From a virus (lineage: Duplodnaviria > Heunggongvirae > Uroviricota > Caudoviricetes), in IMG/VR virus record IMGVR_UViG_2851955134_000009: DNA of 64,000 bases. One strand, written 5' to 3'. Shown here piece by piece: positions 5,580 to 14,704 of the stretch. The position numbers and the translations under genes were made by a program. Every line of letters begins with the position of its first letter. Positions within the stretch are counted from its first letter, which is position 1. The notes under the pieces were generated by a model. The model did not search any database. It was not told the origin of the DNA and saw only the letters and a list, made by a program, of their open reading frames with translations.

Positions 5580-6433
5580 GCACCATCCTGAAATGGGCGG
5601 GAAATAAAACCGCCATTATGCCAGAACTGAAAAAATACCTTCCTGCTGGCCCGCGACTGGTTGAACCTTTCGCGGGTTCCTGTGCTGTGATGATGGAAAC
5701 GGATTATCCCAGCTATCTGGTTGCGGATATTAATCCTGATTTAATCAACCTCTATAAAAAGGTTGCCGCTGATTGTGAATCGTTTATATCTCGCGCCAGA
5801 GTTTTATTTGAGATCGCAAACAGGGAGGTGGCTTATTACAACATAAGGCAGGAGTTTAACTGCTCAACTGAAATTACTGATTTCATGAAAGCGGTATATT
5901 TCCTGTATCTCAATCGTCACGGTTACCGTGGTTTATGTCGCTATAACAAGAGCGGGCATTTCAACATTCCCTACGGTAATTATAAAAATCCGTATTTCCC
6001 TGAAAAAGAACTTCGCACATTTGCAGAAAAAGCCCAGCGAGCAACGTTTATCTGCGCCAGCTTTGATGAAACGCTGGCGATGTTGAAGGCGGGAGATGTG
6101 GTGTATTGCGATCCGCCATATGACGGTACGTTTTCCGGCTATCACACTGATGGTTTCACTGAAGATGACCAGTATCACCTGGCATCCGTTCTTGAACATC
6201 GGTCATCAGAAGGACATCCGGTCATTGTTTCTAACAGTGACACATCCCTGATCCGTTCGCTGTATCGCAATTTTACTCACCACTATATCAAGGTAAAACG
6301 CAGCATCGGTGTGGCAGCTGGCGAGGGTAAATCAGCAACAGAAATCATTGCTGTTTCCGGGCCGCGCTGCTGGATGGGATTTGATTATTCGCGTGGCGTG
6401 GATAGTTCTGCCGTGTACGGAGTACGTGCATGA
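5576..6433 (+). CDS. dam: DNA N6-adenine methyltransferase (Dam family, orphan)
   Basis: ILKWAGNK N-terminal motif and DPPY catalytic motif ([10 protein letters not shown]); GGAGG RBS; no adjacent restriction gene. Confidence 0.85.
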
Positions 6434-8844
6434 GTCATGCCGATATGAACAACTGCTGCGGCTTTAACGAGGCTGCCGCAGCATTCTCATGGAACAGCCC
6501 GAAAAAGGCCATTAACCCTTATCTGGACCCGGCGGAAGTTGCGCCGGTTTCTACGCTTTCAAACCTGATCACTCTGTACGCTGCCGATAACGAGCAGGAA
6601 CAGTTGCGCCGCGAGGCACTGAGTGATCAGGTCTGGGAGCGTTATTTCTTTAATGAATCACGTGATCCTGTCCAGCGCGAAATGGAGCAGGATAAGCTCA
6701 TTAGCCGGGCAAAGCTGGCGCATGAGCAGCAGCGTTTTAATTCAGACATGGTCATTCTGGCGGACGTCAACGCCCAGCCTTCCCATATCAGCAAGCCGCT
6801 GATGCAACGTATTGAATACTTCAGCAGCCTGGGCAGGCCAAAGGCTTATTCCCGCTATTTACGTGAGACGATTAAGCCATGTCTGGAACGACTGGAGCAT
6901 GTACGCGACAGTCAGCTATCTGCATCTTTTCGCTTTATGGCAAGCAATGAAGGGCTGGACGGCCTGCTGATCCTGCCTGAAATGAGTCAGGATCAGGTGA
7001 AACGCCTGTCCACCCTGGTAGCTGCGCATATGAGTATGTGCCTTGATGCAGCTTGTGGTGATTTGTATGCCACCGATGACGTTAAGCCAGAAGAAATCCG
7101 CAAGACATGGGAAAAGGTGGCAGCGGAAACCCTGCGTCTGGATGTCATCCCACCTGCGTTTGAGCAACTCCGTCGGAAAAGAAACCGCCGTAAACCCGTG
7201 CCCTATGAACTCATTCCGGGTTCGCTGGCGCGTATGTTGTGCGCCGACTGGTGGTATCGGAAATTATGGAAGATGCGTTGCGAATGGCGGGAAGAGCAGT
7301 TGCGCGCTGTTTGCCTGGTCAGCAAAAAAGCATCTCCTTATGTCAGCTATGAAGCCGTGATGCATAAACGTGAGCAGCGCCGTAAGTCGCTGGAGTTTTT
7401 CCGTTCTCATGAACTGGTGAACGAAGACGGCGACACGCTGGACATGGAGGATGTGGTAAACGCCAGCAGCAGCAACCCTGCGCATCGCCGCAATGAGATG
7501 ATGGCCTGTGTTAAAGGTCTGGAGCTTATCGCGGAAATGCGCGGTGACTGCGCCGTTTTCTACACTATCACCTGTCCGTCGCGTTTCCATTCCACGCTAA
7601 ATAACGGCAGACCAAACCCGACCTGGACAAACGCGACGGTAAGACAAAGCAGCGATTATCTGGTCGGCATGTTTGCTGCATTTCGTAAGGCGATGCACAA
7701 AGCCGGGTTGCGCTGGTATGGCGTGCGGGTGGCTGAGCCGCATCATGATGGCACAGTTCACTGGCACCTGTTGTGTTTCATGCGCAAAAAAGACCGCCGT
7801 GCCATCACTGCATTACTGCGTAAGTTTGCCATCCGTGAAGACCGCGAGGAGCTGGGCAATAACACTGGGCCGCGCTTTAAGTCTGAGTTGATTAACCCGC
7901 GCAAAGGAACGCCGACAAGCTACATCGCGAAATATATCAGTAAGAACATTGACGGTCGTGGTCTGGCTGGCGAGATCAGCAAGGAAACGGGTAAATCTCT
8001 GCGTGATAACGCTGAATACGTGAATGCCTGGGCGTCTCTGCATCGTGTTCAGCAATTCCGCTTCTTTGGTATTCCGGGGCGTCAGGCTTACCGTGAACTT
8101 CGCTTGCTGGCTGGTCAGGCGGCAAGGCAACAGGGTGACAAAAAAGCAGGTGCGCCGGTACTGGATAACCCGCGTCTTGATGCCATTCTGGCTGCTGCTG
8201 ATGCTGGTTGTTTTGCCACCTACATCATGAAGCAGGGCGGCGTACTGGTTCCCCGTAAATATCACCTCATCAGAACCGCTTATGAAATCAACGAAGAGCC
8301 GACCGCCTATGGCGATCACGGCATTCGTATTTATGGCATCTGGTCACCCATTGCAGAGGGCAAGATCTGCACTCATGCAGTGAAGTGGAAAATGGTTCGT
8401 AAAGCCGTTGACGTTCAGGAGGCGGCAGCCGACCAGGGCGCTTGCGCCCCTTGGACTCGTGGCAATAACTGTCCCCTTGCTGAAAATTTGAACCAACAAG
8501 GGAAAGACAAATCAGCTGATGGGGATACCAGGACGGACATTACCCGCATGGATGACAAGGAGTTGCACGATTACCTGCACAGTATGAGCAAAAAAGAGCG
8601 CCGGGAACTGGCTGCAAGGTTACGCCTGGTGAAACCGAAACGGCGTAAAGACTACAAACAGCGAATTACAGACCATCAGCGACAGCAGCTCGTCTATGAA
8701 CTGAAGTCCAGAGGATTTAATGGCAGCGAGAAAGAGGTCGATTTACTCCTTCGCGGCGGCAGTATTCCGTCAGGAGCAGGCCTGCGTATCTTCTATCGGA
8801 ACCAGCGTTTGCAGGAAGATGATAAGTGGCGAAACCTGTATTAA
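6430..8844 (+). CDS. A: Replication initiation endonuclease (P2 gpA family, rolling-circle)
   Basis: 804 aa; active-site tyrosine region [15 protein letters not shown]; ATGA overlap with dam. Confidence 0.85.
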
Positions 8845-8997
8845 TTACGCGGGTTAACAATTCGTGCTCTTAATAATACCAGGCATATCAGGCTAATGAA
8901 CGTAAAAAAACGTTTTACATCAGTAAGATTATTATATACTGTAAATATAAACAGTGGTTATGTATACAGTATTGCTTGTGGTGTCATAGGAGGAAAG

Positions 8998-9186
8998 ATG
9001 CAGGACTATTTTTTGGAGTCTTTGAAGCTCCAGCGCATTGATTTTTTTCTTAAGCTTGTAGCGGCTAGTGAGTGTAGTGATGAAGAGAAGGGGCTGGCTT
9101 TGCAGTGGGTTTCTGAACTGACAGATGAACTCATGGCAAAAATCAGAACCCACGAATACAACCGCTCAATGGATGTCATCAGCTGA
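8998..9186 (+). CDS. Hypothetical small protein
   Basis: 62-aa ORF from ATG with AGGAGG RBS. Confidence 0.45.
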   Translation: MQDYFLESLKLQRIDFFLKLVAASECSDEEKGLALQWVSELTDELMAKIRTHEYNRSMDVIS

Positions 9187-9196
9187 GGTGACCTTT

Positions 9197-9430
9197 ATGC
9201 GCATTGAAATAATGATCGATAAAGAGCAGAAGATTAGCCAGTCTACCTTGGACGCCCTTGAATCCGAGCTTTACCGCAATCTGCGCCCCCTGTATCCCAA
9301 AACGGTAATTCGCATCCGCAAAGGTAGCTCTAACGGTGTGGAACTGACCGGACTGCAACTGGACGAAGAAAGAAAACAAGTGATGAAGATTATGCAGAAG
9401 GTGTGGGAAGACGACAGCTGGCTGCATTAA
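9197..9430 (+). CDS. DinI-like SOS-response modulator
   Basis: 77 aa, MRIEIMIDKE...VWEDDSWLH matches the DinI pattern (MRIEV...W.ES..W); GAGGTG RBS. Confidence 0.7.
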   Translation: MRIEIMIDKEQKISQSTLDALESELYRNLRPLYPKTVIRIRKGSSNGVELTGLQLDEERKQVMKIMQKVWEDDSWLH

Positions 9431-9589
9431 GAAAAGTTGCTGGCGTCTGAACTTGGTTCTGGCGTCAGCAAGGTTGAACAACGAGTACAGTGAGGCGTTA
9501 GGTGTGGCGTTTATTTGATGAGTGAACGCCCGTTCTGCGACAGGTTCGGAGATTAAGGTTGAAACTACGGGCAAAATACCATCTTTTTC

Positions 9590-10015
9590 CTACTTAATTG
9601 AGTCCAGTAACAAGTTACAGTTACTCTCATTGTAGAGAGAACGAGCAATTAGTGTTACCTGCTTTCCATTCATTCCCGGCTTATCCCATAACACAGCTTC
9701 TTGCGACGCCACAAATTCAGCATAATCAATTATGCGTTGTTCGTGATCTGGTTCCTCATAGCCAAAGTATGAGAGCGCATCGTTGTAAGCGTGGTAAGCT
9801 GCTTTCTGTAATATCTTGATATCGGCTGTAGGTACTTGCTCCGTGTAGCTAGGATCTAATTGTGTGCTACTGCCATAGAATGCACATGAAAGGTAAGATA
9901 TTGATTTCTGTTGAGCTTTAGTTCCTTTCTCATAGTTTTTAGCTGTTACCGCCTGAACAGGGACGCTAACAAAGCTTGCAACCAGAATTAAAATTAATAC
10001 GTAAAAGCTTTTCAT
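9590..10015 (-). CDS. Secreted protein of unknown function (cargo)
   Basis: 141 aa with N-terminal signal peptide (MKSFYVLILILVASFVSVPVQA); low GC; GAGGT RBS. Confidence 0.6.
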   Translation of the reverse strand: MKSFYVLILILVASFVSVPVQAVTAKNYEKGTKAQQKSISYLSCAFYGSSTQLDPSYTEQVPTADIKILQKAAYHAYNDALSYFGYEEPDHEQRIIDYAEFVASQEAVLWDKPGMNGKQVTLIARSLYNESNCNLLLDSIK

Positions 10016-10288
10016 TTTGACCTCAGCCGAAACGTTAGAGAGACTATCGAAATTTGTAAAACCCGTGGCGATTCAGTTTGAGATCCTCCCCCTTACATGA
10101 TTTTTAATCAAATATATGCTTTTGTAAGCATACCTGTTAACCGAATTATTTATTTTTAGAGATCTTCCGACATACTGATTATGCCCGCTGAGGAGTTCAC
10201 CTTGCGTAAAGTCCGATTCGCTTTACTCGTCTGTGCATGTCTATGCTGCATGAGATTGCATGATCGTTTGAGGATCGTTTTTGCTAAG

Positions 10289-10312
10289 GCCCGCCAGAAC
10301 TGGCGGGCTTTT
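10289..10312 (+). terminator. Rho-independent terminator
   Basis: GCCCGCC-AGAACT-GGCGGGC hairpin followed by TTTT. Confidence 0.6.
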
Positions 10313-10357
10313 GCGTAGATCATGCTCCTGCATGAAAACCACTACATAAAGCGGGCA

Positions 10358-10376
10358 GGCGTGGCGGGGATACGAG
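10358..10376. other. Candidate cos (cohesive end) site of the P2-like phage
   Basis: GGCGTGGCGGGGA matches the start of the P2/186 19-nt cos sequence as recalled (GGCG[A/T]GGCGGGGAAAGCA.); lies between replication and head genes as expected. Confidence 0.4.
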
Positions 10377-10462
10377 CGCGCGTATTAGGTTTTATTTGAG
10401 AGCTTGTTAAATATGATGTTTCACAATTAGAATTGTCCGTAAATCATTCTGTTGGAGGCATT

Positions 10463-10645
10463 ATGGAATACTTAAGCGAAATCATTAGTTTTTTGGCAGG
10501 GGCGGGTATCAGTTGGGCTATTACTTTCAATGTGTATAATTACAAAGTAAAGCAAATTTGTATGAACCAAAGTTCTCCCATTCAAAATGGAAATACAGTG
10601 ACAAACGGAAGCATTGTCGGTAGAGATCAGACTAATTCTCACTAA
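10463..10645 (+). CDS. Small membrane protein, first gene of candidate cassette
   Basis: 60 aa from ATG with GGAGG RBS; one TM helix (IISFLAGAGISWAITF); C-terminal NGSIVGRDQTN motif repeated in the next ORF. Confidence 0.5.
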   Translation: MEYLSEIISFLAGAGISWAITFNVYNYKVKQICMNQSSPIQNGNTVTNGSIVGRDQTNSH

Positions 10646-10658
10646 GGGAGTGATTGGT

Positions 10659-11225
10659 GTGTTTAGTAAACAGGAGCAATCAGGTAATAGAGTAAGAAAT
10701 GGGAGTATTGTTGGAGGGAGTCAAACAAACCACATTACCAATATAGTTCGTAGTAGTAATCGAACTTTAGAGCGTTTGTACCAAAAGTTCTCTCAAGAAG
10801 ATGGAACTATGGGGGGGCAGGATTTTTGTGATAAGTTAAAGCACTATTTAGCCTCGGATACCAATCCAGATATAAGAGATTTAGCTACAAAGCTAACTGA
10901 TAGTGATAGAACTGAATTAATTTACTTTGCAACTGCTCTTAAAGAGCAAGCCCTCAAGGCGATAATGAAGTGCCAATCTTCCAAAACCGCACAAGAAATA
11001 TATGCGTTTATTCTTGATAAAATTCATGCTGATTTTATGCTCAAAATTACACCTCTTATTCAGAAGGATGAGGACCGAGTAATTGTTGATGAAAAAATTT
11101 CATTGGTATTAGAAAATATTAGTGAAATGTTGGGCGATAATTTGTTAAACTTATCCGAAAAGGATCTTTTGGGACTGTTGTATTTTTTAGGCGGAAATTG
11201 TTATATAAGGTGGGATAAATGTTAG
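10659..11225 (+). CDS. Hypothetical protein, candidate cassette component
   Basis: About 188 aa from GTG at 10659 (GTG at 10650 also possible); low GC; N-terminal NGSIVGGSQTN repeat; ends overlapping next start. Confidence 0.55.
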   Translation: MFSKQEQSGNRVRNGSIVGGSQTNHITNIVRSSNRTLERLYQKFSQEDGTMGGQDFCDKLKHYLASDTNPDIRDLATKLTDSDRTELIYFATALKEQALKAIMKCQSSKTAQEIYAFILDKIHADFMLKITPLIQKDEDRVIVDEKISLVLENISEMLGDNLLNLSEKDLLGLLYFLGGNCYIRWDKC

Positions 11226-11719
11226 TTTATCATCCAGCATATGATGCCTATCATTGTCTATTTAGAATGATGGCAATTATGGAAAATACAAATCGGCTTG
11301 AGATTGATAAGCTTAAAATATTGGATTTTTACATTTTATTTCCTGCGTTATTAAGTGAAGTGAAAATGCCGAGAGAATTTATTAAAATTAAAAAAACAGC
11401 AAAACTACATCATAATGAATATCATGATCCATTGAGTCCAAGGATTATTTTCAAGGAAATGCGTCAAATACAGGATGCAGCACTAAAATGTATGCTTGCG
11501 ACTGGTTATATTGATTCTGATGATTTCAGCAATGGTTTTGTCTCAAGAACAAATAAACAATTACCACTGAACCTAGCCTTAGAAATGGGCGTTTTTTTAG
11601 AGCGCAAAGAACCGTTTTCATCTTTCATTACACAAAAGATGGCTAAATTTGATCTGACTGGACCTGATGGATTGAAGGCTAGAACTAAACTTATGGAGTA
11701 TAGATATGACACTTATTAA
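11219..11719 (+). CDS. Hypothetical protein, candidate cassette component
   Basis: 166 aa; ATG with AAGGTGGG RBS; 7-nt overlap with upstream gene and 14-nt overlap with the ATPase gene. Confidence 0.6.
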   Translation: MLVYHPAYDAYHCLFRMMAIMENTNRLEIDKLKILDFYILFPALLSEVKMPREFIKIKKTAKLHHNEYHDPLSPRIIFKEMRQIQDAALKCMLATGYIDSDDFSNGFVSRTNKQLPLNLALEMGVFLERKEPFSSFITQKMAKFDLTGPDGLKARTKLMEYRYDTY

Positions 11720-13610
11720 GCCTACTCTTATTGTAACCAGATTAACAGTTTTTCAACACGGACATCGTGCATTTGATTGTGAATTCCACAAAGGTGTTAA
11801 CATTATTCGTGGGCGAAATAGTTCTGGTAAAACTACAATAATGGATATGCTGGCATTTTCATTGGGAGCTGAAAATATCAGGTGGAAACCACAGGCTTTG
11901 AAATGCACTAGAACAATCGTTGAAGTGCTTCTCAATAATGAGAAAGCATGCTTTAAACGAGAGATATCTATTGAGCAAATGCGACCTCTTTATATTTATT
12001 GGGGAGCGATGGATAAGGCTTTGAATGCTGGGGAACACGAATGGGATTTATACCCATTCAAGAGAACTGAGAGTAAAATTAGCTTCACCCAAGCTATTTT
12101 CAATGCATTATCAATGCCCTTGGCACAAGGTGCTGGTTCTTCTAATTTGACATTGCATCAGATTTTACGTGTCTTGTATGCAGATCAGCCGTCGTTACAT
12201 AGTCCAATTTTTCGATTTGACAGATTTGATAATGCTCTTACCCGTGAGACGGTAGGTGGATACTTATGTGGTGTTTATAATGATGAGTTGTACAATGCAC
12301 AACTTTCTTTAAGAGATGTTGAGACCGAACTAACAAAGAAAGTTACTGAATTAAAAAGTATCTTTACTGTATTAGGTAGATCTGGACAGGCTCCAGATTT
12401 ACAAGGTATTGATGAGAAAATAAAGCATCTAAATAAATTGAGAGCTATTGAGAATGTAAAACTAACAAATAGAGCTATTATAACTAATGAAGAAGGGGCT
12501 GATTCTGAAAAACGAATGGGTACTATCAGGGAGGAACTCAATGAAGCTAAAAGGAAATTATCTTCCCTAAAAGATAAAATCCAATCTTTGGATTTTGAAA
12601 TTTCAGATTCTGATATGTTTATATCAGAATTAAATGAGCGGCTAAAAAACTTAGAACAGTCTCGAGAAACGCGTGCTATATTTGATAGTATGAATTTTGA
12701 TTTTTGCCCTAGTTGTCTTTCCAAAATAGATAAGGCTCATAATGATCATGTTTGTCATCTATGTAAAGTGGAACAATTAGATGATAAAGCTGAAAATCAG
12801 TTATTAAGAATGAAAAATGAATTAACTCTTCAAATCAAAGAATCTCTTCAATTAATGGATAGAAGAAAAGAAGAGTTGGTAAGATTAAAGCGAGATGTTC
12901 CTTTAGCTGAGAGTGAATTAAAAAGGCTTGAACAGGATTATTTCAAAGAGTCACACTATTGGTCTTCACCGCAAGAGTTAGCTGTAGGTAAAATATATAG
13001 GGAAATTGGACGGCTTGATGAAGAAATAAAAAGAGCTTATGAAGATAAGAAGCTTATTGTTGTTATTAATGAACTTCAAGAGCGTCGCGATGAACTTCAG
13101 GCGGAAAAAAATAGACTTGATGATCTTATTGAACTTTATGAAGAAAAAGAGGAAGTTCTTAAAGATAAAATTTATGCTTCAGTGAGCTCAATAGCACAAG
13201 AGCTTTTACAAGAAGATTTGCCTTTGCAAAAAGAGTTTATGTCTCCTGAAAGTGTGGAGTTTAGTTTTACTGATAATAGCGTTTATGTGAATGGTAGTAA
13301 GAACTTTTCTGAAAGTTCAGCTGTAGTATTAAGGCATATATTCCATTTGGCACTACTTTCAGCAAGTATAGAGAACCACTCAATGCGACTTCCAAGATTT
13401 ATGATGTTAGATGGGATCGACGATGGTGGAATGGAAAAAGAACGGAGTCACAATTTACAGGAAATAATAATTGATGAGTGCTCACGTTATGAACATGATT
13501 ATCAGTTGATATTTGCAACATCTGAAATAAATCCCAAATACAGTGAGAGTGAATATATTGTTGGTGAGTATTATTCGCCAGATAATTATTCATTGAAAAT
13601 AATTGAGTAA
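11706..13610 (+). CDS. SMC/Rad50-like ABC ATPase with long coiled-coil insert and CxxC...CxxC hook-like motif
   Basis: 634 aa; Walker A GRNSSGKTT near N-terminus, about 300-aa K/E-rich coiled coil with CPSC-x10-CHLC, C-terminal Walker-B-like FMMLDGIDD; no TOPRIM or nuclease domain visible. Confidence 0.75.
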   Translation: MTLIKPTLIVTRLTVFQHGHRAFDCEFHKGVNIIRGRNSSGKTTIMDMLAFSLGAENIRWKPQALKCTRTIVEVLLNNEKACFKREISIEQMRPLYIYWGAMDKALNAGEHEWDLYPFKRTESKISFTQAIFNALSMPLAQGAGSSNLTLHQILRVLYADQPSLHSPIFRFDRFDNALTRETVGGYLCGVYNDELYNAQLSLRDVETELTKKVTELKSIFTVLGRSGQAPDLQGIDEKIKHLNKLRAIENVKLTNRAIITNEEGADSEKRMGTIREELNEAKRKLSSLKDKIQSLDFEISDSDMFISELNERLKNLEQSRETRAIFDSMNFDFCPSCLSKIDKAHNDHVCHLCKVEQLDDKAENQLLRMKNELTLQIKESLQLMDRRKEELVRLKRDVPLAESELKRLEQDYFKESHYWSSPQELAVGKIYREIGRLDEEIKRAYEDKKLIVVINELQERRDELQAEKNRLDDLIELYEEKEEVLKDKIYASVSSIAQELLQEDLPLQKEFMSPESVEFSFTDNSVYVNGSKNFSESSAVVLRHIFHLALLSASIENHSMRLPRFMMLDGIDDGGMEKERSHNLQEIIIDECSRYEHDYQLIFATSEINPKYSESEYIVGEYYSPDNYSLKIIE

Positions 13611-13614
13611 TTGT

Positions 13615-13645
13615 ATATGTGGCTGCTATTTTTGTAGCCACATAT
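13615..13645. terminator. Perfect 10-bp hairpin between convergent ATPase and Q genes (possible bidirectional terminator)
   Basis: ATATGTGGCT-(11 nt loop)-AGCCACATAT immediately after the ATPase stop; no clean U-tract. Confidence 0.35.
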
Positions 13646-13675
13646 AAATTACTGTCTGAACTTTATTGTTTTTGT

Positions 13676-14704
13676 TCAAAGTACGTATGGTCTAAACCTA
13701 ATTATTTCTATTTCAAGCCAGTCGTTTAATTGATCAAATCTTTTCTGCATGGGCACCAATTCATTGCGCATAAATACCTTACTAGCCTTCTCCACATCCC
13801 CAAACCCCCCAACATTATTCGGCAAAATTCCCATCATCTGAGGCGGTACGCGGTGTGCAGCCATCATGTCGTCCCGGCTCACGTTCTTGATGTTCAGAAA
13901 TTCATCTTTCGCTGCGACTTCTGACAACGGGATAATCTGAAGTCCGTCCTTTTTGCCGTTAGGCGAGTACATAAACAGATTGCGGAAGTTGCCTGGACCT
14001 TTGGCGCTTTTCATCGCGTTGCGGAGGTTGTTCACATCCTCCTGATTCTGCGCGGCGTCGGTCATGTACATGATGAAGCCTGCATGACTACCGTTGATGT
14101 AATACTTACGGCGGAACAGCGTGGCGGATTCGTTGAGCAGGGCGGATGGAATGGCAGAAAGATAGCCGGGCAGGCCGTAGATCTCCTGGTTGATGTCCGG
14201 TTCCATCAGATGAAAAATGCTGCCTTTCGTGAACTGATACGGCTGGGTTGTCATACCGTATTGCACAAACCAGTAGGTATCCAGGTCTAACCCGCGTCGG
14301 GTGTATTTTGCCAGCGCAGGCTCAAGGGCGATAACTTCACCGAATCGGTTCGTGCGTTTCTCCAGGTAGGCGTTACCAAATACCAGATAGTCCTGCACAA
14401 AACGCGAAAAAGCCTGTTGGCTGAGCAGCGGATGAGGGATATAGGTACTGGTCAGAATGTTGCACTTTACTGCAATCGGGGAACTGTGATGCACGGCAGC
14501 GCGGAAGGTGCGCGCCAGTCCGTCAAAGCTGACGGGAGGCTCATACCAGCGATCTGTCTGAACACATTCCACATAGTCCAGCAGTTCGCGGCGGTCAAGT
14601 ACTGGAACGGGATCACCGAAGCTGAATGCTTCGGCTGAAGTCTGGTTTTTATGCTGGATCTGATTCGTCGCCGCAGCGCGGTTTTTCTTACTCTTTCCCA
14701 TCAA
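13676..14704 (-). CDS. Q: Portal protein (P2 gpQ-like)
   Basis: 342 aa; size and position match P2 Q next to the terminase ATPase. Confidence 0.85.
   Translation of the reverse strand: MMGKSKKNRAAATNQIQHKNQTSAEAFSFGDPVPVLDRRELLDYVECVQTDRWYEPPVSFDGLARTFRAAVHHSSPIAVKCNILTSTYIPHPLLSQQAFSRFVQDYLVFGNAYLEKRTNRFGEVIALEPALAKYTRRGLDLDTYWFVQYGMTTQPYQFTKGSIFHLMEPDINQEIYGLPGYLSAIPSALLNESATLFRRKYYINGSHAGFIMYMTDAAQNQEDVNNLRNAMKSAKGPGNFRNLFMYSPNGKKDGLQIIPLSEVAAKDEFLNIKNVSRDDMMAAHRVPPQMMGILPNNVGGFGDVEKASKVFMRNELVPMQKRFDQLNDWLEIEIIRFRPYVL

What the first reader, a model, noticed from the sequence alone, without database searches (positions are those of the whole stretch)
9590..10015. Low-GC secreted protein of unknown function between replication gene A and the cos-like site
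A minus-strand 141-aa protein with a signal peptide, visibly AT-rich relative to the phage backbone, occupies the position where P2 itself carries defence cargo. It could be a periplasmic lysogenic-conversion factor or an exclusion protein.
Basis: inference. Interest (0 to 1): 0.35.

Follow-up and report, generated by a model that had tools for sequence, protein, structure and literature searches.

The report
Orphan periplasmic moron gene in P2-like prophage
A small AT-rich gene cassette inserted next to the packaging site of a P2-like prophage encodes a real, conserved, exported helical protein from a tiny uncharacterised family carried only by temperate phages of enterobacteria; it probably protects the host's cell envelope, but its function has not been tested.

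Summary
Window 9590-10015 (-) is a 141-aa ORF with a Shine-Dalgarno site and a Sec-type signal peptide. Its GC content is 40%, against 53% for the phage backbone. It lies in a 731-bp cassette (9502-10232) that is absent, at exactly this point, from sister phages. The cassette sits between dinI and cos in a P2/Fels-2-like prophage.

The gene is under purifying selection (dN/dS about 0.18). 100 of 5,426 complete E. coli genomes carry it, always in this slot and next to varying defence cargo.

The family is phrog_7437. It has no Pfam, NCBIfam, PADLOC or PDB match. A confident AlphaFold model (pLDDT 88.6) shows an all-helical domain with no specific fold match. All 20 aligned family members have a signal peptide, an acidic mature domain and exactly two cysteines, both invariant.

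Members occur only in temperate phages, phage-plasmids and mobile islands of Enterobacterales.

One new detail: the cassette keeps a dead 27-codon remnant of an upstream two-transmembrane-helix partner gene. That partner is intact in Hafnia and has a homologue in the same position in Klebsiella aerogenes, so this copy is an orphan.

Function is not shown. My best guess, at low confidence, is a periplasmic binder or inhibitor that gives superinfection exclusion or immunity. This is an ordinary moron of unknown function and of modest interest.

The parts
9502..10232 (.). 731-bp AT-rich insertion cassette (40.9% GC). Sister phage 500465-1 has 7 bp here.
   Evidence: blastn of the window against L002: 8800-9501 and 10233-10382 align at 96%, and the stretch between them is replaced by 7 bp. 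All 100 E. coli copies have the cassette with both flanks.
9590..10015 (-). CDS of the 141-aa exported protein (WP_000834899.1; phrog_7437). The mature domain is about 119 aa, 13.4 kDa, pI 5.06.
9950..10015 (-). Codons 1-22: Sec-type signal peptide, with predicted cleavage after VQA.
   Evidence: Hydropathy and motif inspection; equivalent N-termini in the aligned family members; low pLDDT over residues 1-20 only.
10021..10024 (-). Shine-Dalgarno GAGG, 5 nt before the ATG.
   Evidence: Read from the sequence; retained as GAGG or AAGG in the Klebsiella and Hafnia copies.
10032..10060 (-). Candidate proximal promoter, TTTACA (10060-10055) - 17 nt - TAACGT (10037-10032). It is weak against consensus (8 of 12).
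   Evidence: The TTTACA (TTTATA in the lambdoid copy) and TAACGT/TAATGA blocks are among the few upstream stretches conserved across the E. coli, Klebsiella, Hafnia and lambdoid contexts. That this is a promoter is inference only.
10111..10140 (-). Distal promoter-like site, TTAACA-18-TATATT (10 of 12), straddling the point where homology to the Hafnia partner gene starts.
   Evidence: the number of such sites in the region is not above the shuffled expectation. Partly conserved in Klebsiella as CTAACA and TATGTT.
10035..10121 (-). Dead remnant of the last ~27 codons of a ~215-aa two-TM partner gene, with an in-frame TAA replacing a Tyr codon.
   Evidence: tblastn of Hafnia 215-aa residues 190-215 gives 57% identity, ending 20 nt before the ORF start as in Hafnia. 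DNA alignment of window 10122-9583 to L012:4899-5433 is 79% identical, E = 6e-133. The same remnant is present in the Klebsiella cassettes.
9425..9471 (-). Terminator-like hairpin (9471..9437) followed on the minus strand by CUUUUCUU. It lies in backbone DNA and overlaps the end of dinI. It is the likely end of the ORF transcript.
   Evidence: strand folding; the simple scanner did not flag it, so it is tentative.
10286..10313 (+). Strong plus-strand hairpin, GGCCCGCCAGAACUGGCGGGC followed by UUUUGCG. It is the probable terminator of the rightward early operon, so read-through from A/dinI would be antisense to the ORF.
   Evidence: strand folding z = -4.76, 0 of 200 shuffles as stable. It lies in the conserved backbone block 10233-10382.
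10358..10376 (+). cos-like sequence GGCGTGGCGGGGATACGAG.
   Evidence: 15 of 19 matches to the phage 186 cohesive-end sequence as I recall it. It lies inside the block conserved in Fels-2, RE2010 and Klebsiella P2-like phages.
9197..9430 (+). dinI-like gene, the left backbone neighbour.
   Evidence: Pfam DinI 1.3e-22; RefSeq annotation.

Best explanation
What it is (shown). The finding is a phage moron: a self-contained 731-bp AT-rich cassette inserted between dinI and cos of a P2/Fels-2-like (Peduoviridae) prophage, transcribed against the early operon.

It encodes a Sec-exported, soluble, acidic protein of about 13 kDa. The predicted mature domain is made of long alpha-helices, and its two invariant cysteines (C44, C133) most likely form one disulfide.

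It belongs to a very small uncharacterised family (phrog_7437). That family is carried only by temperate phages, phage-plasmids and mobile islands of Enterobacterales. This copy is an orphan: the two-TM membrane-protein gene that precedes it in Hafnia, and that precedes a distant homologue in K. aerogenes, survives here only as a dead 27-codon stub.

How it most likely works (inferred, not shown). It is made in the lysogen from its own promoter, exported to the periplasm and oxidised by DsbA. There it acts as a stoichiometric binder or inhibitor of an incoming periplasm-acting protein. The target could be the tail-associated or injected protein of a superinfecting phage. That would be superinfection exclusion, working like T4 Spackle, a signal-peptide-bearing, disulfide-bonded helical bundle that inhibits gp5 lysozyme. 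Alternatively the target could be a muralytic or membrane-active bacteriocin or T6SS effector, which would make it an orphan immunity protein. Either way the benefit goes to the host cell and so to the prophage.

My confidence is about 0.9 in the description and about 0.35 in the mechanism. The figure below is for the mechanism.
For: Cassette and moron nature: the indel against phage 500465-1 is precise. GC is 40% against 53%. The gene is present in 100 of about 1,280 E. coli genomes that share the backbone flanks, always in the same slot, and next to differing cos-Q cargo: Lamassu/ABC-3C here, an S1 peptidase in SF-468, and AIPR, nSTAND1 or DUF4325 in Klebsiella.

Real protein: dN/dS is 0.175 between the two orphan copies in E. 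coli and Klebsiella.

Export and periplasm: signal peptide without a lipobox or TM segment. All 20 aligned members have exactly two cysteines in the mature part, both invariant, and a pI of 4.5-5.9.

Fold: the AF2 model has pLDDT 88.6 and blocks above 90 across most of the mature domain; it is all-helical.

Mobile-element restriction and autonomy: members are solo genes, often opposed to their neighbours, in several settings. These are the P2 dinI-cos slot, the P2 S-V slot in Hafnia, the end of a lambdoid prophage just after the tail-fibre genes, SSU5-like IncFIB phage-plasmids, and an IS/mer plasmid region. None was found in the representative genomes of 185,579 species.

Envelope theme: distant members sit in operons made almost wholly of other signal-peptide proteins, lipoproteins and small TM proteins.

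Location: it lies in a hotspot where 4 of the 9 cloned P2 constructs (8 new systems plus old-tin) gave anti-phage activity (PMC9122126). The Spackle precedent for a periplasmic, helical, disulfide-bonded exclusion protein is in PMC7677548.
Against: There is no direct functional evidence of any kind. There is no PADLOC, Pfam or NCBIfam hit.

No family member was found next to a recognisable toxin or effector gene in about 15 contexts examined.

The gpA-gpQ hotspot also carries non-defence cargo. Promoter evidence is weak: the count of consensus sites is not above shuffled expectation. Acidic pI and a disulfide are generic periplasmic features.
Confidence: 0.35

Rival explanations
1. It is the relic antagonist of a lost two-gene module. 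The 141-aa protein is the periplasmic partner (antitoxin, immunity or regulator) of the ~215-aa two-TM membrane protein. After that gene was truncated, the orphan persists because it neutralises the partner when related phages or elements supply it, or it has little function of its own.
For: The gene pair (215/219-aa two-TM protein followed by a phrog_7437 member) is conserved in two unrelated phage backbones, at 29% identity (BLASTP) for the membrane proteins and 28-34% for the exported ones. The gaps are 20 nt and 74 nt. The window and Klebsiella cassettes keep the dead 3' stub of the partner at the right spacing. By the positive-inside rule the partner's C-terminal domain is predicted to be periplasmic, the same compartment (sequence; inference).
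Against: Most family members have no such partner. This applies to the phage-plasmid, lambdoid, Citrobacter, Salmonella plasmid, L028 and L029 members. A third partner homologue (P0028) is followed by an unrelated 163-aa protein. The orphan is still under purifying selection between E. coli and Klebsiella (dN/dS 0.175), so it has a function without the partner. The partner shows no toxin domain.
Confidence: 0.15
2. It is a lysogenic-conversion or fitness factor aimed at the animal host or environment rather than at phages or competitors. Examples would be a periplasmic inhibitor of host lysozyme or antimicrobial proteins, or an envelope-stress or metal-binding helper.
For: Phage morons do encode envelope factors, and the P2 hotspot carries a virulence toxin in about 2% of loci. 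Many carriers are extra-intestinal or avian pathogenic isolates, including SF-468 from blood and APEC O1:K1:H7 strains. The protein is periplasmic, acidic and disulfide-bonded.
Against: The strain list is not corrected for clonality and also includes cattle, water and commensal-type isolates. There is no similarity to the LprI-family protein tested (hhalign probability 4%), and nothing resembling a lysozyme inhibitor, SodC or a chaperone appeared in the PDB or Pfam searches. There is no conserved His/Cys/Met metal-site pattern; the invariant residues are C44, W110, Y128, N132 and C133.
Confidence: 0.15
3. It has a role in the phage's own life cycle in the envelope, for example tuning lysis (regulating endolysin, spanin or holin) or lysis inhibition, rather than benefiting the lysogen.
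For: In the K. aerogenes phage and in L028 and L029 the homologue is embedded co-directionally, with overlapping stop and start codons, in phage operons. One partner homologue gives a weak Rz-like spanin PHROG hit (E = 7e-4).
Against: Only about 8% of E. coli prophages with this backbone carry it, and sister phages lack it altogether, so it is dispensable for the phage. In the window it is transcribed against the early operon and far from the lysis cassette. The spanin hit covers a TM-plus-coiled-coil region and is probably compositional.
Confidence: 0.08
4. It is a decaying, functionless ORF left by an old insertion.
For: Its upstream partner is already a pseudogene. No function is known.
Against: dN/dS is about 0.18-0.21. 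The reading frame is intact in all 100 E. coli copies at 99% identity or more. The family is conserved down to 21-25% identity with invariant Cys, Trp, Tyr and Asn. The structure prediction is confident.
Confidence: 0.03

Closest known systems
phrog_7437 (PHROGs v4, unknown function); RefSeq WP_000834899.1 'hypothetical protein'
   Same: Full-length match, 141 of 141 positions, E = 4e-99. All 20 aligned relatives hit this PHROG and no other meaningfully. The identical protein is annotated in 100 complete E. coli genomes. It is listed as 'hypothetical' among P2 hotspot arrangements in Rousset et al. 2022, Table S5A.
   Different: Nothing differs; this is the family it belongs to. The family carries no name, function, Pfam model or structure.
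Phage morons of P2-like phages (tin/old next to cos; orf30 between S and V; Z/fun)
   Same: The slot is the same as tin/old, on the A-to-cos side of the gpA-gpQ hotspot. The cassette is AT-rich, precisely present or absent between sister phages, and transcribed independently of the flanking operon. The Hafnia orthologue sits between S and V, where P2 carries orf30 (P2 map from my own knowledge).
   Different: There is no sequence relationship to Tin, Old or other known cargo. The product is periplasmic, whereas Tin and Old act in the cytoplasm (from my own knowledge of P2).
T4 Spackle (gp61.3), a periplasmic superinfection-exclusion protein
   Same: Both are phage-encoded, with a cleavable signal peptide of about 22 residues. 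Both are small, soluble and all-helical, with one disulfide joining an N-proximal helix to a C-terminal helix. Spackle acts in the periplasm by binding gp5 lysozyme (PMC7677548).
Periplasmic T6SS/bacteriocin immunity proteins (for example Tai4/Rap-type helical immunity proteins) and orphan-immunity arrays on mobile elements

Membership tests
Phage moron (Hendrix-type accessory cassette) | Present in one phage and precisely absent from close relatives at the same site | tested here: met
   Window 9502-10232 corresponds to 7 bp in phage 500465-1. Many E. coli prophages with the same flanks have an empty or differently filled slot.
Phage moron (Hendrix-type accessory cassette) | Nucleotide composition differs from the surrounding phage genes | tested here: met
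   40.4-40.9% GC against 52.9% (gene A) and 50.6% (portal).
Phage moron (Hendrix-type accessory cassette) | Own promoter and terminator flanking the gene | tested here: inconclusive
   Promoter-like sites lie at 10140-10111, and a conserved TTTACA-17-TAACGT lies at 10060-10032. A hairpin plus U-run lies at 9471-9425. None is statistically compelling.
Phage moron (Hendrix-type accessory cassette) | Expressed from the repressed prophage | not testable with these tools
   Needs RNA-seq or 5'-RACE of a lysogen such as PK8568 or SF-468.
P2 gpA-gpQ hotspot anti-phage system (Rousset et al. 2022) | Located between gpA and gpQ, adjacent to cos | tested here: met
   A 6430-8844, ORF 9590-10015, cos-like 10358-10376, Q 13676-14704; hotspot definition.
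P2 gpA-gpQ hotspot anti-phage system (Rousset et al. 2022) | Homology to a known or candidate defence protein | tested here: not met
   No PADLOC family at E <= 0.1.
P2 gpA-gpQ hotspot anti-phage system (Rousset et al. 2022) | Confers resistance to phages when cloned | not testable with these tools
   The protein appears only as 'hypothetical' in Table S5A. It was not found in the stored (truncated) text of Table S5B.
Sec-exported soluble periplasmic protein | N-terminal n-h-c signal peptide with a small-x-small cleavage site, no lipobox, no other TM segment | tested here: met
   Inspection and hydropathy; the same architecture in the aligned relatives. No dedicated predictor was available.
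Sec-exported soluble periplasmic protein | Conserved cysteine pair consistent with a periplasmic disulfide | tested here: met
   C44 and C133 are invariant, with exactly two Cys in every mature domain.
T4 Spackle family | Sequence or fold homology to gp61.3 | tested here: not met
LprI / DUF1311 lysozyme-inhibitor family | Match to PF07007 or to a family member | tested here: not met
   No Pfam hit for any of the 20 members. hhalign against an LprI-family protein gave probability 4%, over the signal peptide only.
Tai4-type T6SS immunity proteins | Specific fold match and an adjacent cognate effector | tested here: not met
phrog_7437 | Full-length HMM match | tested here: met
   E = 4.3e-99, positions 1-141 of 141.

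The most novel reading that the evidence does not exclude
phrog_7437 is the founding family of a new class of phage-encoded periplasmic protection proteins. On this reading it is a helical, disulfide-locked scaffold with no specific match among solved structures. It blocks an incoming phage or a periplasm-acting toxin on its own. It originally worked together with a two-TM inner-membrane partner, in an Imm+Sp-like pair, and spread through P2-like, lambdoid and SSU5-like temperate phages as a solo orphan.
Probability: 0.2. Interest if true: 0.55.

Novelty: new member of a known kind. Interest (0 to 1): 0.3.

Why it matters
Defence discovery in the P2/P4 hotspots has focused on cytoplasmic, nucleic-acid-centred systems. 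Envelope-level cargo is seldom examined and is invisible to PADLOC-type tools.

This gene is a compact candidate: 426 bp, a single gene, and present in about 2% of complete E. coli genomes. A new periplasmic exclusion or immunity function here could be tested with one clone and a phage or bacteriocin panel.

The truncation history also shows how hotspot cargo is trimmed to a minimal functional unit: a two-gene module reduced to an orphan that stays under purifying selection. If the gene has no such phenotype, it remains one more hypothetical moron.

Tried and rejected
1. Pfam, NCBIfam and PADLOC on the ORF gave nothing. Pfam on all 20 relatives at E <= 5 gave only scattered single hits.

2. 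PDB sequence searches with 7- and 20-sequence profiles gave nothing meaningful.

4. Pesticin-immunity (Pim) idea: tblastn against 72,556 plasmids at E <= 10 returned only family members on 13 enterobacterial plasmids (the three inspected were two IncFIB plasmids with phage-type genes and one Salmonella plasmid) plus one weak chance-level Burkholderia hit, and no Yersinia plasmid. I dropped the idea.

5. LprI/DUF1311 idea: hhalign probability 4%.

6. Possible tandem paralogue (157-aa and 165-aa exported proteins beside distant members): hmmsearch E = 4e-4, but hhalign probability only 22%. I left this as unproven.

7. Rfam on 8800-10700 gave no RNA family.

8. tblastn against 50,697 deposited phage genomes found no copy. 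The family is seen in prophages, in 33 IMG/VR loci and in phage-plasmids.

9. Two scans of one representative genome per species (185,579 species) found no relative (one search failed for lack of a conserved stretch).

10. A literature search for the accession returned no paper. The NAR 2026 paper's supplements are not held.

11. No target-site duplication or repeats were seen at the cassette junctions.

Full report
**1. The observation**

GAGG lies 5 nt upstream of the ATG.

The N-terminus, MKSFYVLILILVASFVSVPVQA|VTAK, has the n-h-c layout of a Sec signal peptide with a V-Q-A cleavage motif. There is no lipobox and no other hydrophobic segment. The predicted mature protein is 119 aa, 13.4 kDa, pI 5.06, with two cysteines.

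The gene is 40.4% GC (GC3 38.7%). Replication gene A is 52.9% (GC3 57.3%) and the portal gene is 50.6% (profile).

The surrounding element is a P2/Fels-2-like (Peduoviridae) prophage. Its layout here is:
- Dam-type methylase
- gene A (6430-8844)
- a 62-aa ORF (8998-9186, phrog_698)
- dinI (9197-9430)
- the ORF on the opposite strand
- a conserved cos-proximal block (10233-10382) with a cos-like GGCGTGGCGGGGATACGAG at 10358-10376
- a three-gene Lamassu/ABC-3C system (10659-13610)
- the portal gene Q on the minus strand

**2. It is a discrete inserted cassette**

Against Escherichia phage 500465-1, window 8800-9501 and 10233-10382 align at 96%. The 731 bp between them (9502-10232, 40.9% GC) corresponds to 7 bp in that phage. 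No target duplication is visible at the junctions.

In the collection of 5,426 complete E. coli genomes:
- About 1,280 share the dinI/cos flanks.
- 100 carry the cassette at 99% identity or more. All copies are chromosomal and all sit in this same slot with both flanks.
- In the rest the slot is empty or holds other cargo, such as a KAP P-loop NTPase, DUF2971, a ComF-family protein, DUF8087, DUF6575 or a DUF6694 lipoprotein.

The cargo on the other side of cos varies independently:
- Lamassu/ABC-3C here; only 3 genomes carry the full combination.
- An S1 peptidase pair in strain SF-468.
- AIPR, nSTAND1 or a DUF4325 trio in the Klebsiella P2-like prophages that carry the 90%-identical orthologue.

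The ORF is therefore an independent module, not part of the neighbouring defence system.

**3. It is a real, selected protein from a tiny family**

dN/dS is 0.175 (E. coli against Klebsiella), 0.187 (E. coli against Hafnia) and 0.209 (Klebsiella against Hafnia).

A word-indexed search of 5.8 billion proteins found 7 clusters. An exhaustive HMMER scan of 1.84 billion representatives found 17 proteins at E <= 1e-3, of which the last three are long or repetitive proteins matched only in short stretches. A profile search added a few more, all labelled hypothetical.

Where a source organism is named, it is E. coli, Klebsiella aerogenes, Hafnia alvei, Enterobacter, Citrobacter or Salmonella.

Twenty sequences, down to 21% identity, align over the full length. 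C44, W110, Y128, N132 and C133 are invariant, and there is a conserved core I-D-Y-A-E-F-V-A-S-Q-E-A-V-L-W-D-K-P-G-M-N. Every member shown has an N-terminal signal peptide, an acidic mature domain (pI 4.5-5.9) and exactly two cysteines there.

All 20 match phrog_7437 (unknown function) and nothing else. There is no Pfam, NCBIfam, PADLOC or PDB-sequence match.

**4. Structure**

With the 20-sequence alignment, AlphaFold2 gives mean pLDDT 88.6 and pTM 0.78, with blocks above 90 over most of the mature domain. The model is made of helices at 25-50, 63-83, 91-110, 120-130 and 133-140. The signal peptide is the low-confidence part.

So the fold is a helical bundle with no specific relative among solved or viral predicted structures. 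Helical bundles are hard to discriminate, so I do not claim a new fold.

**5. Where the family lives**

Every context examined is a mobile element:
- The dinI-cos slot of P2-like prophages in E. coli and Klebsiella.
- The S-V slot of a Hafnia P2-like prophage, where P2 carries its orf30 moron (P2 map from my own knowledge).
- The end of a lambdoid prophage, just after the tail-fibre and tail-spike genes and next to trp/ompW.
- The edge of a Citrobacter prophage beside an icd remnant.
- IncFIB plasmids of about 105-115 kb carrying phage-type genes (DUF4942, phage N-6-adenine methylase, RNase HI, HD-domain protein), which I take to be SSU5/pHCM2-like phage-plasmids. There the gene is a solo gene pointing against its neighbours.
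- An IS/mer region of a Salmonella plasmid.
- Operons of integrated elements near mqo/ecotin and of a small K. aerogenes phage.

In those last operons the neighbours are almost all exported too: signal-peptide proteins, lipoproteins and small TM proteins.

No copy occurs in 50,697 deposited phage genomes or in one representative genome for each of 185,579 species. IMG/VR holds 33 loci, mostly the identical P2-type copy. This is strain-level accessory cargo of temperate phages.

**6. The new detail: this copy is an orphan**

In Hafnia the orthologue (77% aa identity) starts 20 nt after a 215-aa protein with two N-terminal TM helices and a C-terminal domain of about 160 aa (sequence). In the K. 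aerogenes phage a distant family member (28-34% identity to the window protein, depending on the alignment) is likewise preceded by a 219-aa two-TM protein. That protein is homologous to the Hafnia one (29% identity, E = 3e-18).

The window's minus strand from 10122 to 9583 is 79% identical at the DNA level to the Hafnia locus (E = 6e-133). The homology starts inside the last 27 codons of the partner gene. tblastn places partner residues 190-215 at 10121-10038 (57% identity), ending at the same 20-nt distance from the ORF start. The frame there contains an in-frame TAA in place of a Tyr codon, and there is nothing homologous further upstream.

The Klebsiella cassettes carry the same stub (64% identity, with stops). 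So a single truncation predates the spread of this cassette among P2-like phages.

The orphan has stayed under purifying selection since then (dN/dS 0.175). Most other family members have no such partner at all. A third partner homologue is followed by an unrelated gene. The exported protein therefore functions autonomously, and the pairing is an optional association rather than an obligate two-component system.

**7. Transcription signals (tentative)**

- A 10-of-12 sigma-70-like site (TTAACA-18-TATATT, 10140-10111) straddles the truncation junction. Such sites are not enriched over shuffles in this region.
- Closer to the gene, TTTACA (10060-10055) - 17 nt - TAACGT (10037-10032) is one of the few upstream stretches conserved in all four contexts aligned, including the otherwise unrelated lambdoid one.
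- Downstream, a hairpin at 9471-9437 followed by CUUUUCUU on the minus strand could end the transcript.
- A strong plus-strand terminator hairpin at 10286-10313 (z = -4.8) lies beyond the cassette. Read-through of the early operon past dinI would therefore be antisense to the ORF.
- No Rfam family matches the region.

**8. What it most likely does**

Shown: this is an independently acquired, selected gene for a soluble exported helical protein with a conserved cysteine pair. It is carried only by temperate mobile elements. It is usually a solo unit in classical moron slots, within a hotspot known to hold defence genes and also other cargo (PMC9122126).

Inferred: it is expressed in the lysogen and acts in the periplasm by binding something that arrives there. 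The best precedent for such a protein is T4 Spackle. Spackle has a 22-residue signal peptide and a 75-aa helical bundle with one disulfide, and it inhibits the gp5 tail lysozyme to exclude superinfecting phage (PMC7677548). The present protein works like Spackle only by analogy; membership was tested and failed.

An orphan immunity protein against a periplasm-acting bacteriocin or T6SS effector fits about equally well. The clustering of distant members with other small exported proteins points to an envelope arms race, but no effector gene was ever adjacent.

I put about 0.35 on the periplasmic protective binder/inhibitor reading (exclusion plus immunity together). I put 0.15 on a relic antagonist of the lost membrane partner, 0.15 on a host-directed conversion factor, 0.08 on a phage life-cycle or lysis role, 0.03 on no function, and the rest on something not considered.

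**9. Novelty and verdict**

The sequence is already in RefSeq (WP_000834899.1, hypothetical), in PHROGs (7437, unknown) and in the hotspot tables of Rousset et al.. No paper mentions the accession.

It is a new, uncharacterised member of a known kind: a moron in the P2 cos-proximal hotspot. The orphaning history and the family portrait are new, but they are incremental.

Interest is modest (0.3). It would rise to about 0.55 if a periplasmic exclusion or immunity activity were demonstrated.

Noticed in passing
window 10659-13610 (+): Three-gene Lamassu-family / ABC-3C system between cos and portal gene Q. It consists of a CTD9 effector-domain protein (Pfam PF20285, 2.5e-30), Middle Component 5 (PF20291, 1.6e-57; weak LmuC) and an SMC/Rad50-like ABC ATPase (PADLOC LmuB, 1e-42). 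It is very AT-rich (34% GC). Only 3 of 5,426 complete E. coli genomes carry the full stretch 8850-13680, that is, this system together with the ORF.
   Followed up: partly
window 10433-10645 (+): A 70-aa ORF with a hydrophobic N-terminal segment lies just upstream of, and overlaps, the start region of the CTD9 gene. RefSeq does not annotate it and it has no Pfam or PADLOC hit. It may be spurious or a small membrane component.
   Followed up: no
window 10286-10313 (+): Very stable GC-rich hairpin followed by UUUUGCG (z = -4.76). It lies in the backbone block next to cos that is conserved across Fels-2, RE2010 and Klebsiella P2-like phages. It is probably the terminator of the early rightward operon.
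   Followed up: partly
L003:5267-7635 (also L004, L063) and L029:1852-5917, L028:3672-5438, L014:5315-6381: Distant family members sit in co-directional, often stop/start-overlapping operons made almost entirely of exported proteins: signal-peptide proteins, lipoproteins with LSGC, LTGC or LSAC lipoboxes, and small TM proteins. Two elements share a second conserved exported protein (157 and 165 aa, 32% identity). It ends in a YSDKNC-like motif and may be a remote paralogue (hmmsearch E = 4e-4, hhalign probability only 22%).
   Followed up: partly
L012:5624-6640 (Hafnia alvei P2-like prophage, S-V slot): A 338-aa protein with a weak NucS_C / PD-(D/E)xK-like hit (E = 0.004) follows the 215-aa plus 141-aa pair in the P2 orf30-equivalent slot. 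It may be a separate nuclease-type defence moron.
   Followed up: no
E. coli dinI-cos slot in other genomes (L010, L011; hits H58-H79): The short interval between dinI and cos is itself a variable sub-hotspot, distinct from the cos-Q interval. It can be empty or hold a KAP P-loop NTPase, DUF2971, a ComF-family protein, DUF8087, DUF6575, or a DUF6694 lipoprotein with a small partner.
   Followed up: partly
L001:6901-7991 (E. coli SF-468): In a prophage with the identical ORF cassette, the cos-Q slot holds an S1-family peptidase plus a 148-aa hypothetical protein instead of Lamassu. This may be a protease-based defence pair.
   Followed up: no
L053 / L054 (IMGVR_UViG_2541047905_000004, 48 kb): One IMG/VR contig carries two copies of the ORF about 33 kb apart in opposite orientation. 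That suggests two P2-like prophages joined in one contig, or an assembly artefact.
   Followed up: no
L002:366-1598 (Escherichia phage 500465-1): The deposited 'phage' genome used as the empty-site reference has an IS21/IS100kyp-like element interrupting replication gene A. It also has a TIR-domain gene in the cos-Q slot.
   Followed up: no
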